Shown here: one piece after another, positions 700 through 4,557 of the stretch
Layout: each line of letters begins with the position of its first letter
How positions within the stretch are numbered: position 1 is the first letter of the stretch
DNA from: the human T2T-CHM13v2.0 reference genome, Homo sapiens
Length of the DNA stretch: 64,000 nt
NCBI RefSeq assembly: GCF_009914755.1
Contig: NC_060942.1
Strand: one strand, 5' to 3'
Translations under genes and position numbers: made by a program
The notes under the pieces: generated by a model
The model's database searches: none
What the model saw: only the letters and a program-made list of their open reading frames with translations
What the model was told of the DNA's origin: nothing

Positions 700-1233
700 T
701 GGCCGCTGCCGCTGCAGCCTGCTGGGCCGGAGGAAGTGGAGCTGGTGCCGTCCCTGCTCTCTTGCTGGGAAGCAACTGAGGGGGCGGCGCGGCAGGCCCC
801 GGCAGCCGAAGAGGCTGGCAGGTGGCACCGTGGGGTGGGTGCTCCTGGTGAAAGGAGTCCACTGCATGCGTGTGGGCGGAGTCCGGCCCCCGAGAGCCAC
901 CGACATGAAGAAAGACGTGCAGATCCTGGTGGTGGGAGAACCTAGAGTTGGGAAGACATCATTGATTATGTCTCTGGTCAGTGAAGAATTTCCAGAAGAG
1001 GTTCCTCCCCGGGCAGAAGAAATCACCATTCCAGCTGATGTCACCCCAGAGAGAGTTCCAACACACATTGTAGATTACTCAGAAGCAGAACAGAGTAATG
1101 AACAACTTCATCAAGAAATATCTCAGGCTAATGTCGTCTGTATAGTGTATGCCGTTAACAACAAGCATTCTATTGATAAGGTAACAAGTCGATGGATTCC
1201 TCTCATAAATGAAAGAACAGACAAAGACAGCAG
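700..1233 (+). pseudogene. RHOT1: Processed 5' fragment of RHOT1 (Miro1): GC-rich 5'UTR plus first 329 nt of CDS
   Basis: ATG at 905 gives [59 protein letters not shown]...ERTDKDSR, the N-terminal Miro GTPase domain. Intronless; homology stops at ...GACAGCAG. Confidence 0.95.
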
Positions 1234-1312
1234 GCTGGAGTGCAGTGGCGGGATCTCGGCTCGCTACAACCTTCACCTCCCAGCCGCCTGCCTTGGCCTC
1301 CCAAAGTGCTAA
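905..1312 (+). CDS. Open 135-aa fusion ORF: RHOT1 aa 1-110 plus 25 aa from the SVA antisense-Alu region (expression unknown)
   Basis: Part of ORF-track 830..1312; uninterrupted from the native RHOT1 ATG to TAA; tail is [25 protein letters not shown]. Confidence 0.45.
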
Positions 1313-1320
1313 GATTACAG
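1234..1320 (+). mobile_element. 3' remnant of the SVA Alu-like domain
   Basis: gctggagtgcagtggcgggatctcggctcgctacaacc...gccttggcctcccaaagtgctaagattacag matches the end of the SVA Alu-like region as I recall it. Confidence 0.9.
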
Positions 1321-4035
1321 CCTCTGCCCGCCCGCCACCCCATCTAGGAAGTGAGCAGCGTCTCTGCCTGGCTGCCCCGTCTGGGAAGTGAGGAGTGCCT
1401 CTGCCCACCCACCACCCCGTCTGGGATGTGAGGAGCGCCTCTGCCCAGCCACCCCATCTGGGAAGTGAGGAGCGCCTCTGCCCAGCCGCCACCCCGTCTA
1501 GGAAGTGAGGATCGTCTCTGCCTGGCCGCCCATTGTCTGGGATGTGAGGAGCCCCTCTGCCCAGCCACCCTGAATGGGAAGTGAGGAGCACCTCTGCCTG
1601 GCCACCCCATCTGGGAAGTAAGGAGCACCTCTGCCCGGTTGCCACCCCATCTAGGAAGTGAGGAGCGTCTCTGCCTGACCGCCCATCCTCTGGGATGTGA
1701 GGAGCACCTCTGCCTGGCTGCCCCGTCTGGGATGTGAGGAGCACCTCTGCCCTACTGACCATCGTCTGGGAAGTGAGGAGTGCCTCTGCCCGGCCGCCCC
1801 ATCTGGGAGGTGAGGAGCGCCTCTGCCTGGCTGCCCTGCATCTGGGAGGAAGTGAGGAGTGCCTCTGCCCGGCTGCCCCGTCTGGGAAGTGGGGAGCGCC
1901 TCTGTCCAGCCGCCCCATCTGGGAAGTGAGGAGTGCCTCTGCCTGGCCACCACCCCATCTAGGAAGTGAGGAGTGCCTCTGCCCGGCCGCCCTGTCTGGG
2001 ATTTGGGGAGCGCCTCTGCCCAGCCGCCCCATCTGGGAAGTGAGGAGTGCCTCTGCCCAGCCGCCCTGTCTGGGAAGTGAGGAGTGCCTCTGCCCAGCCG
2101 CCCTGTCTGGGAAGTGAGGAGTGCCTCTGCCCAGCCGCCCTGTCTGGGAAGTGAGGAGTGCCTCTGCCCGGCCGCCACCTTGTCTAGGAAGTGAGGAGTG
2201 CCTCTGCCCGGCCGCCACCCTGTCTAGGAAGTGAGGAGTGCCTCTGCCCAGCCGCCCCATCTGGGATGTGGGGAGTGCCTCTGCCAGGCTGCCCTGCCTG
2301 GAAGGTGAGGAGCGTCTCTGCCCGACTGCCCCATCTGGGAATTGAGGAGCGCCTCTGCCCGGCCGCCCCGTCTGGGAGGTGAGGAGCGCCTCTGCCTGGC
2401 CGCCACCCCGTCTGAGAGGTGAGGAGTGCCTCTGCCTGGCAGCCCCATCTGAGAACTGAGGAGCGCCTCTGCCCAGCCGCCACCCCATCTGGGAAGTGGG
2501 GAGCACCTCTGCCCGGCTGCCCTGCCTAGGAAGTGGGGAGCGCTTCTGCCCGGCCACCCCGTCTGGGATGTGAGGAGTGCCTCTGCCCAGCCGCCCTGTC
2601 TGGGATGTGAGGAGCGTCTCTGCCCAGCCGCCACCCCATCTGGGAAGTGGGGAGCGCCTCTGCCTGGCCGCCCCATCTGGGAAGTAGGGAGCGCCTCTGC
2701 CCGGCCACCCCATCTGGGAAGTGAGGAGCGCTTCTGCCCGGCCGCCCCATCTGGGAAGTGAGGAGCACCTCTGCCTGGCCGCCCTGTCTAGGAGGAAGTG
2801 AGGAGCGCCTCTGCCCGGTCACCCTGTCTGGGAGGTGAGGAGTGCCTCTGCCCGGCCGCCCCATCTGGGATGTGGGGAGTGCCTCTGCCTGGCCGCCCAT
2901 CATCTGGGAAGTGGGGAGCACCTCTGCCCGGCTGCCCCATCTGGGAAGTGAGGAGTGCCTCTCCCTGGCCACCCCATCTGGGAAGTGGGGAGCGCCTCTT
3001 CCCGGCCACCCCGTCTGGGAAGTGAGGAGCGCCTCTGCCCGGCCACCCCGTCTGGGAAGTGGGGAGTGCCTCTGCCCGGCCACCCCATCTGGGAAGTGAG
3101 GAGCACCTCTGCCCAGCTGCCCCGCCTGGGAAGTGGGGATCACCTCTGCCCGGCCGCCCATAGTCTGGGAAGTGAGGAGTGCCTCTGCCCGGCCGCCCCA
3201 TCTGGGATGTGGGCAGTGCCTCTGCCTGGCCGCCCATCATCTGGGAAGTGGGGAGCACCTCTGCCCGGCTGCCCCATCTGGGAAGTGAGGAGTGCCTCTC
3301 CCTGGCCACCCCATCTGGGAAGTGGGGAGCGCCTCTGCCCGGCCACCCCGTCTGGGAAGTGAGGAGCGCCTCTGCCCGGCCACCCCGTCTGGGAAGTGGG
3401 GAGAGCCTCTGCCCGGCCACCCCGTCTGGGAAGTGAGGAGCACCTCTGCCCAGCTGCCCCGCCTGGGAAGTGGGGAGCACCTCTGCCCGGCCGCCCATAG
3501 TCTGGGAAGTGAGGAGCGCCTCTGCCCGGCCACCCCGTCTGGGAAGTGGGGAGCACCTCTGCCTGGCCGCCCCGTCTGGGAAGTGAGGAGCATCTCTGCC
3601 CGGCCACCCATCGTCTGGGATGTGAGGAGCACCTCTGCCCTGCCGCCCTGTCTGGGAAACGAGGAGCACCTCTGCCCGGCTGCCCCATCTGGGATGTGGG
3701 GAGTGCCTCTGCCCGGCTGCCCATCATCTGGGAAGTGGGGAGCGCCTCTGCCCGGCCACCCCATCTGGGAAGTGAGGAGTGCCTCTGCCCAGCCGCCCCG
3801 TCTGGGATGTGAGGAGCGCCTCTGCCTGGCCACCCATAGTCTGGGAAGTGGGGAGTGCCTCTGCCCGGCTGCCCCATCTGGGAAGTGGGGAGCGCCTCTA
3901 CCCAGCCACCCCGTCTGGGAAGTGGGGAGCATCTCTGCCCGGCCACCCATCCTCTGGGATGTGAGGAGCACCTCTGCCCCACCGCCCTGTCTGGGAAGCG
4001 AGGAGCGCCTCTACCCAGCCGCCCCATCTGGGAGG
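1321..4035 (+). repeat. SVA GC-rich VNTR (~2.7 kb, ~37-42 bp units)
   Basis: Tandem cctctgcccggccgccccgtctgggaagtgaggagcg variants throughout. Confidence 0.97.
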
Positions 4036-4534
4036 TGTACCCAACATCTCCGAAGAGACAGCAACCATCAAGAATGGGCCATGATGACGATGGTGATTTT
4101 GTTGCAAAGAAAAGGGGGAAATGTGGGGAAAAGAAAGAGAGATCAGACTGTTACTGTGTCTGTGTAGAAAGAAGTAGACATAGGAGACTCCATTTTGTTC
4201 TGTACTTAGAAAAATTCTTCTGCCTTGGTATGCTGTTAATCTATAACTTTACCCCCAACCACGTGCTCTCTGAAACATGTGCTGTGTCAACTCAGGGTTA
4301 AATGTATTAAGGGTGGTGCAAGATGTGCTTTGTTAAACAGATGCTTGAAGGCAGCATGCTGGTTAGGAGTCATCACCACTCCCTAATCTCAAGTACCCAG
4401 GGACACAAACACTGCCTAGGAAAACCAGAGACCTTTGTTCACGTGTTTATCTGCTGACCTTCTCTCCACTATTAGCCTATGACCCTGCCACATACCCCTC
4501 TCCGAGAAACACCCAAGAATGATCAATAAACATT
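4036..4534 (+). mobile_element. SINE-R (HERV-K env/LTR-derived) domain, old SVA_A-like type
   Basis: gtacccaac...gaagagacagcaaccatc...aaaagggggaaatgtggggaaaagaaagagagatcag...cccaagaatgatcaataaa. Subfamily call is from memory. Confidence 0.9.
4525..4530 (+). terminator. SVA polyadenylation signal AATAAA, followed by A-rich tail 4535-4557
   Basis: gatcAATAAAcatt followed by A-runs. Confidence 0.9.
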
Positions 4535-4557
4535 AAAAAAAAAAGATAAAAGAAAAA

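What the first reader, a model, noticed from the sequence alone, without database searches (positions are those of the whole stretch)
700..4557. RHOT1 exons spliced into an SVA and retrotransposed as one chimeric element (exon trapping / 5' transduction)
Seen: between perfect 13-bp TSDs at a TT/AAAA site sit 534 bp of intronless RHOT1 5' mRNA, then an SVA that lacks its hexamer head and most of its Alu-like domain. The junction reads ...GACAGCAG|GCTGGAGTGCAG. Established: antisense-Alu ccag|gctggagtgc is a common cryptic splice acceptor, SVAs trap upstream exons (as with MAST2 in SVA_F1), and I recall c.329 being the end of RHOT1 exon 6. Inference: a RHOT1-promoted transcript spliced into an intronic SVA, ended at the SVA polyA signal and was mobilised by L1 proteins. 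I recall RHOT1-SVA chimeras (RHOT1P loci) being reported in human pericentromeric duplications, so the class is probably known; this copy may or may not be.
Basis: partly seen in the sequence, partly recalled or inferred. Interest (0 to 1): 0.85.

Follow-up and report, generated by a model that had tools for sequence, protein, structure and literature searches.

The report
RHOT1 exons fused to SVA retrocopy
This is a real but already published kind of event: a message made of the first six exons of the RHOT1 gene spliced onto a jumping element (SVA) lying in that gene's next intron was copied into another gene and then spread to three chromosomes by large duplications.

Summary
Window 700-4557 is one insertion between perfect 13-bp target-site duplications (687-699 and 4558-4570). 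It has two parts:

- 534 bp of intronless RHOT1 exons 1-6, ending exactly at the exon 6 donor.
- An SVA that starts 86 bp before its VNTR, followed by a 2.7-kb VNTR, the SINE-R and an A-tail.

I found the source. A sense-oriented, full-length SVA still sits in RHOT1 intron 6 on chr17, 2.3 kb past exon 6. It reads CCCAG|GC at the point where the copy begins. It shares a 22-bp SINE-R deletion, AATAAACATT and an interrupted tail with the copies.

The junction alone is ambiguous. Exon 7 and the SVA both continue GCTG, which gives 7 nt of microhomology. The intronic source settles it in favour of splicing.

The chr13 and chr21 copies have the same TSDs, junction and ANKRD20A flanks. Twenty-four other ANKRD20A paralogs show the empty site. 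That means one retrotransposition followed by segmental duplication, with no sign of re-mobilisation.

A 2022 paper cites Damert 2009 and Hancks 2009 for an SVA "RHOT1 transduction group" that co-amplified with segmental duplications. The finding is therefore already known, and I score interest low.

The parts
687..699 (+). 5' target-site duplication AAAAGATAAGTTC, preceded by TT. On the bottom strand this reads TTTT/AA, the L1 endonuclease type of site.
   Evidence: family D4, 100%. Empty sites in 24 paralogs. The endonuclease consensus is from established knowledge.
700..904 (+). RHOT1 5' UTR (part of exon 1). It begins inside the parent's (GCC)n tract.
   Evidence: Exon 1 is 91% identical to chr17: 21 mismatches in 240, of which 11 are of CpG-decay type.
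905..1233 (+). RHOT1 coding sequence c.1-329, from the rest of exon 1 through exon 6, with no introns. Exon 6 is 1181-1233.
   Evidence: The boundaries of exons 2-5 are known only to within 2-5 nt, because the BLAST hits overlap.
1234..1319 (+). The last 86 bp of the SVA Alu-like domain, starting right after the AG acceptor of the source.
   Evidence: 97.7% identical over 86 bp to L009 2377-2462. The source reads CCCAG|G at L009 2375-2377.
1320..4037 (+). SVA VNTR: 37-bp period, about 72 units, about 2.7 kb. It contains a 98% identical higher-order duplicate, 2826-3125 and 3163-3462.
4038..4534 (+). SINE-R domain with the poly(A) signal AATAAA at 4525-4530, followed by CATT.
   Evidence: 95.0% identical over 503 bp to the intron 6 SVA..
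4535..4557 (+). Interrupted A-tail: A10, GATAAAAG, then A-run. The chr13 and chr21 copies keep GGTACAAG here, and the source has GTACAAG.
4558..4570 (+). 3' target-site duplication AAAAGATAAGTTC.
161..686 (+). Host ANKRD20A5P exon sequence upstream of the insertion. The exon is continuous with 4571 onward in paralogs that lack the insertion.
   Evidence: Hub annotation..

Best explanation
A RHOT1 pre-mRNA started at the RHOT1 promoter. Exons 1-6 were spliced normally. [quoted passage not shown] The transcript was polyadenylated at the SVA's own AATAAA. L1 proteins reverse-transcribed this chimeric RNA into a TTTT/AA site in the last exon of one ANKRD20A paralog and made a 13-bp TSD. That paralog was later copied by pericentromeric segmental duplication, which gave the chr18 (this window), chr13 and chr21 copies. 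Their VNTRs have since changed length independently.

Shown: the anatomy, the exact donor and acceptor positions, the source element, the empty sites and the shared flanks.

Inferred: that L1 did the mobilisation (from the TSD, tail and target site), and the order and date of the events.
For: - Exons 1-6 are contiguous and end at the donor.
- A full-length sense SVA occupies L009 2071-4535 (C17:33123970-33126434), with its own TSD GAAATAATAAATGC. It lies between exon 6 (L009 29-83) and exon 7 (starting at L009 6627).
- The copy begins at the base after the source's AG, at L009 2375-2376.
- In a genome search with the SINE-R (2590 candidates, 40 scored), the best non-self hits are chr13 (800 bits), the chr17 intron 6 SVA (795 bits) and chr21 (786 bits). 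The next hit scores 760 bits at 91%.
- The source and the three copies share a 22-bp SINE-R deletion, ACTTAG, and AATAAACATT followed by A10 and an interrupting motif. That motif is GTACAAG in the source, GGTACAAG in chr13 and chr21, and diverged to GATAAAAG in chr18. None of the 5 next-best SVAs I fetched has these characters.
- A search with the source's last 70 nt (453 candidates, 40 scored) finds the three copies as the best non-self hits, at 96-99%. All others are at 94% or below.
- One perfect TSD pair encloses both parts in all 3 copies, and 24 close paralogs show a single-copy empty site.
- The flanks are 96-99% identical among the three filled loci.
- Literature: PMC9132208 (Discussion passage) names the RHOT1 transduction group as co-amplified with SDs. 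[quoted passage not shown]
Against: - Exon 7 begins GCTG, as the SVA does after its AG. RHOT1 mRNA and SVA therefore share CAGGCTG, and the breakpoint could lie anywhere in those 7 nt. The junction alone is compatible with a template switch.
- Today's source reads GCCGG where all three copies read GCTGG, so one change in the source lineage has to be assumed.
- Substitution identity in gap-free columns does not single out the source. chr18 is 93.4% identical to the source and 91.8-93.8% identical to the five other SVAs. The link rests on the indel, the diagnostic sites, the tail and the location.
- The 22-bp deletion was checked in only 5 other SVAs.
- No RNA evidence for the exon 6-to-SVA splice was available.
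Confidence: 0.95

Rival explanations
1. Template switch during reverse transcription. L1 reverse transcriptase copying an SVA RNA jumped, at the 7-nt microhomology CAGGCTG, onto a mature RHOT1 mRNA and copied it to its 5' end.
For: RHOT1 exon 6/7 reads CAGCAG|GCTGCC and the SVA reads CCCAG|GCTGG in the copies. The shared 7 nt cover the junction. The RefSeq RHOT1P1 span ends at 1237, 4 nt past exon 6, which reflects the same ambiguity (hub annotation).
Against: The SVA partner is the one that lies in sense orientation in exactly the intron after exon 6, out of at least 2590 SINE-R-bearing candidates. A switch between unlinked RNAs would not predict that. The breakpoint window coincides with both a donor and an AG acceptor.
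Confidence: 0.03
2. Two separate events: a 5'-truncated SVA insertion, and a 3'-truncated RHOT1 processed pseudogene inserted next to it, or a fusion at the DNA level.
For: None specific. Both kinds of insertion exist in pericentromeric DNA (general knowledge).
Against: There is one TSD pair around the whole element and no A-tail or second TSD at 1233/1234. The empty sites lack both parts together. The junction falls exactly on a donor and an acceptor.
Confidence: 0.01
3. The chr18, chr13 and chr21 copies are independent retrotranspositions of an active RHOT1-SVA family, as with SVA_F1.
For: The literature calls it a 'transduction group'.
Against: All 3 copies have the identical 13-bp TSD, the same junction, and ANKRD20A flanks that are 96-99% identical. 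The genome search with the 534-bp RHOT1 part scored 7 of 7 candidates and found no copy with other flanks.
Confidence: 0.01

Closest known systems
SVA 'RHOT1 transduction group' (Damert et al. 2009, Genome Res 19:1992; Hancks et al. 2009, Genome Res 19:1983), as cited in PMC9132208
   Same: An SVA carrying RHOT1 sequence at its 5' end and co-amplified with segmental duplications (Discussion passage). That is what searches show here.
   Different: Nothing demonstrable. I could not open either 2009 paper, so I did not see whether this chr18 copy, the intron 6 source or the GCTG ambiguity is described there.
SVA_F1 (MAST2 exon 1 spliced to SVA) and chimpanzee pt_SVA_D6 (STK40 exon 1)
   Same: [quoted passage not shown] A GC-rich first exon sits at the 5' end.
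   Different: This element carries six exons instead of one. It has only one retrotransposition event, against 84 and 94 members, and it multiplied by segmental duplication. Whether the exact AG is the same as in SVA_F1 was not tested.
Template-switch chimeric retrogenes (U6-L1 type; recalled, no call)
   Same: Two RNAs appear as one insertion inside one TSD pair.
   Different: Here the two parts are neighbours on one pre-mRNA and are joined donor to acceptor.
Ordinary RHOT1 processed pseudogene (RefSeq name RHOT1P1)
   Same: Intronless RHOT1 sequence mobilised by L1.
   Different: It stops at exon 6 and takes its 3' end and poly(A) from an SVA. The RefSeq span 905-1237 covers only the coding part.

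Membership tests
Exon-trapping SVA 5' transduction (spliced host exons plus SVA) | The 5' part is intronless host exons ending exactly at a splice donor. | tested here: met
   Exon 6 ends at window 1233 and the gene continues with gt.
Exon-trapping SVA 5' transduction (spliced host exons plus SVA) | The SVA part begins immediately after an AG in the SVA. | tested here: met
   The source has CCCAG|G at L009 2375-2377.
Exon-trapping SVA 5' transduction (spliced host exons plus SVA) | A source SVA lies in sense orientation in the intron downstream of the last trapped exon. | tested here: met
Exon-trapping SVA 5' transduction (spliced host exons plus SVA) | L1 hallmarks: one TSD pair, an A-tail and a TTTT/AA target. 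| tested here: met
Published RHOT1 transduction group | This locus is listed among the group's members. | not testable with these tools
   The 2009 papers are not held. Only the citation in PMC9132208 was seen.
Canonical full-length SVA | A CCCTCT hexamer head and a complete Alu-like domain. | tested here: not met
   The copy lacks the 306 bp that the source has before the acceptor.
Template-switch chimeric retrogene | The partners are unlinked RNAs and the junction is unrelated to splice sites. | tested here: not met
   The partners are adjacent on one pre-mRNA and the junction lies at a donor and an acceptor.
Actively amplifying non-canonical SVA family (SVA_F1-like) | Several copies with different TSDs and flanks. 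| tested here: not met
   All 3 of the 3 copies share TSD and flanks.

The most novel reading that the evidence does not exclude
The annotated ANKRD20A5P intron 696-4567 may be real. Its GT lies in the 5' TSD copy and its AG in the 3' TSD copy, so the host transcript would splice out the whole 3.9-kb RHOT1-SVA insertion. The product would be only one base (G) shorter than the uninterrupted exon of the 24 empty paralogs. That would make it a retrotransposon insertion turned into an intron by its own target-site duplication.

The alternative, which I think much more likely, is that a cDNA resembling an empty-site paralog was aligned here and the aligner chose GT-AG within the 13-nt ambiguity.
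Probability: 0.07. Interest if true: 0.4.

Novelty: already known. Interest (0 to 1): 0.15.

Why it matters
This is a clean textbook case of SVA exon trapping. The progenitor intronic SVA, the donor, the acceptor, the empty sites and the later duplication are all visible in a single genome.

It also gives a natural series for VNTR length change after duplication: about 1.39, 1.96 and 2.72 kb in the copies against 1.55 kb in the source. And it shows that a junction sequence alone can mislead when the next exon happens to resemble the acceptor's exon.

It opens no new question, because the group was described in 2009.

Tried and rejected
- Papers not available: Damert 2009 and Hancks 2009 by PMC id, DOI and PubMed id, and a 2010 SVA review. 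None is held.
I could not see which RHOT1-SVA locus is meant there.
Searches replaced it.
- A search for 'RHOT1P1' found 3 expression papers. I saw only the listing, and none concerned the structure.
- The template-switch, two-insertion and independent-retrotransposition readings were considered and rejected (see rivals).
- Pairwise substitution identity of SINE-R did not discriminate the source from other SVAs. I relied on shared indel, site and tail characters and on location instead.
- The source tail motif GTACAAG may be part of a longer, degraded TSD of the source. Compare CTACATG upstream at L009 2051-2057 (family D5, 74%). That would make it a 7-nt 3' transduction. This is unresolved.

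Full report
**Observation**

- A perfect 13-bp direct repeat, AAAAGATAAGTTC, lies at 687-699 and 4558-4570 (family D4).
- Just inside the 5' copy, 534 bp (700-1233) match six separate blocks of chr17 in order, with no intervening sequence. The blocks are 33088254-493, 33116812-872, 33119598-681, 33121086-132, 33121729-787 and 33121928-982.
- From ATG 905, the translation matches PDB chains named Mitochondrial Rho GTPase 1 over residues 1-111, with four substitutions.
- Next come 86 bp of antisense-Alu-like sequence (1234-1319), a 37-bp-period tandem array of 71.8 units (1320-4037), a SINE-R with AATAAA at 4525-4530, and an interrupted A-tail.

**Exon boundary and acceptor**

In the chr17 gene the sixth block ends ...GACAAAGACAGCAG and is followed by gtatttttt. 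Window 1233 is therefore the last base of an exon, and c.329 is correct.

I fetched 80 kb downstream of exon 6 and compared it with the window's SVA parts. This found a sense-oriented SVA in the very next intron.

- It occupies L009 2071-4535 (C17:33123970-33126434).
- It has its own 14-bp TSD, GAAATAATAAATGC.
- It has a C-rich head, a complete Alu-like domain, a 1.55-kb VNTR and a SINE-R.
- Exon 7 starts at L009 6627 behind ttattttag, so the SVA lies between exons 6 and 7.
- The SVA reads GTTGCCCAG|GCCGGAGTGCAG. The window's SVA part begins at the base after that AG and is 97.7% identical over the 86 bp up to the VNTR.

**Is that SVA the source?**

Evidence in favour:

- A whole-genome search with the window's SINE-R (2590 candidates, 40 scored) ranks chr13, the chr17 intronic SVA and chr21 at 800, 795 and 786 bits. 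The next hit scores 760 bits at 91%.
- I aligned the four elements with the five next-best full-length SINE-R hits that I fetched, 5 of the 36 other scored hits. The source and the three copies share a 22-bp deletion, ACTTAG in place of ACTAAG, and AATAAACATT in place of AATAAATACT.
- They also share a tail of A10 followed by an interrupting motif and more A. The motif is GTACAAG in the source and GGTACAAG in chr13 and chr21. In chr18 it has drifted to GATAAAAG.
- A search with the source's last 70 nt (453 candidates, 40 scored) returns the three copies as the best non-self hits, at 96-99%. All others are at 94% or below.

Evidence against:

- Plain substitution identity in gap-free columns does not separate the source from other SVAs (93.4% against 91.8-93.8%).
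- The source now reads GCCGG where the copies read GCTGG.

Exon 7 begins GCTGCC. The mature RHOT1 mRNA reads CAGCAG|GCTG, and the SVA reads CCCAG|GCTG (the state found in all three copies). The two share 7 nt, CAGGCTG, across the junction.

The junction alone is therefore compatible with a microhomology-guided template switch. The same identity explains why the RefSeq RHOT1P1 span runs to 1237 and not 1233.

What decides for splicing is that the SVA partner is the one lying in sense orientation in the intron directly after exon 6.

**Insertion site and spread**

A search with 400 bp of the 5' flank (48 candidates, 40 scored, loci for 30) gave 27 loci at 92% identity or above.

- Three are filled: chr18, chr13 and chr21. 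These three are also the most similar to one another (97-99%).
- Twenty-four show the 5' and 3' flanks adjoining across a single AAAAGATAAGTTC, one of them with a mismatch. Three distant relatives are also uninterrupted.
- Ten scored matches were given no locus, and I did not inspect them.
- The chr13 and chr21 copies have the same perfect TSDs, the same junction, and flanks 96-99% identical on both sides.
- The search with the RHOT1 part scored 7 of 7 candidates and found no copy with other flanks.

The conclusion is one retrotransposition into one ANKRD20A paralog, followed by segmental duplication.

Since the duplication:

- The VNTRs differ in length: about 2715, 1387 and 1959 bp, against 1545 bp in the source.
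- The chr13 copy has lost 40 bp of the RHOT1 part and its reading frame.
- The chr18 and chr21 copies keep a 135-codon frame that runs 25 codons into the SVA.

**Age (inference)**

Differences from the parent exons:

| Copy | Differences | Aligned positions | CpG-decay type | Other |
|---|---|---|---|---|
| chr18 | 24 | about 540 | 11 | 13 |
| chr21 | 17 | about 540 | 10 | 7 |
| chr13 | 18 | 510 | 9 | 9 |

The non-CpG divergence is 1.3-2.4% on what is essentially one lineage. At roughly 1e-9 per site per year (a recalled rate), that suggests an event in the mid-teens to low twenties of millions of years ago. This is compatible with an early hominoid SVA, but the estimate is rough.

**Comparison with the literature**

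[quoted passage not shown] 2009; Hancks et al. 2009...)'.
[quoted passage not shown] It also mentions other 5' transduction groups that contain parts of spliced mRNAs.
- The two 2009 papers are not held. I cannot say which details they already report, such as the intron 6 source, the copy list or the GCTG ambiguity.

**Verdict**

The feature is already known. Interest is low.

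Noticed in passing
window 696-4567 (annotated ANKRD20A5P intron): The RefSeq intron between exons 161-695 and 4568-5945 starts with the GT inside the 5' TSD and ends with the AG inside the 3' TSD. It therefore removes the entire RHOT1-SVA insertion. The product, GATAA|TTCC, is one G shorter than the empty-site sequence GATAAGTTCC of 24 paralogs. 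The acceptor follows a purine-only A-tail and the donor GTTCTG is weak, so this is probably an alignment of an empty-site-like cDNA.
   Followed up: partly
window 905-1237 (RefSeq RHOT1P1 span): The annotation covers only the coding part. It omits the 205-bp 5' UTR (700-904) and overshoots exon 6 by 4 nt, because exon 7 and the SVA both continue GCTG.
   Followed up: yes
window 2826-3125 and 3163-3462: Two 300-bp VNTR blocks lie 337 bp apart and are 98% identical (family D1). This is a recent higher-order duplication that partly explains why this copy's VNTR is the longest of the three.
   Followed up: no
L009 4515-4549 (C17, 3' end of the source SVA): The GTACAAG that interrupts the source's tail resembles CTACATG just upstream of the source's 5' TSD (family D5, 74%). 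It may be a degraded part of a longer TSD. If so, the copies carry a 7-nt 3' transduction of RHOT1 intron sequence.
   Followed up: partly
L003 / L047 (C13:18032500-18032988): The RHOT1 part of the chr13 copy is 494 bp and not 534 bp. It has deletions in the 5' UTR and a 2-bp loss in exon 2 that breaks the frame after 25 codons.
   Followed up: partly
L020-L043 (24 ANKRD20A-like loci on chr1, 2, 3, 4, 9, 13, 14, 15, 20, 21, 22): Many near-identical copies of this ANKRD20A exon lie at low coordinates of the acrocentric chromosomes and near centromeres in this assembly. All are empty at the insertion site.
   Followed up: no
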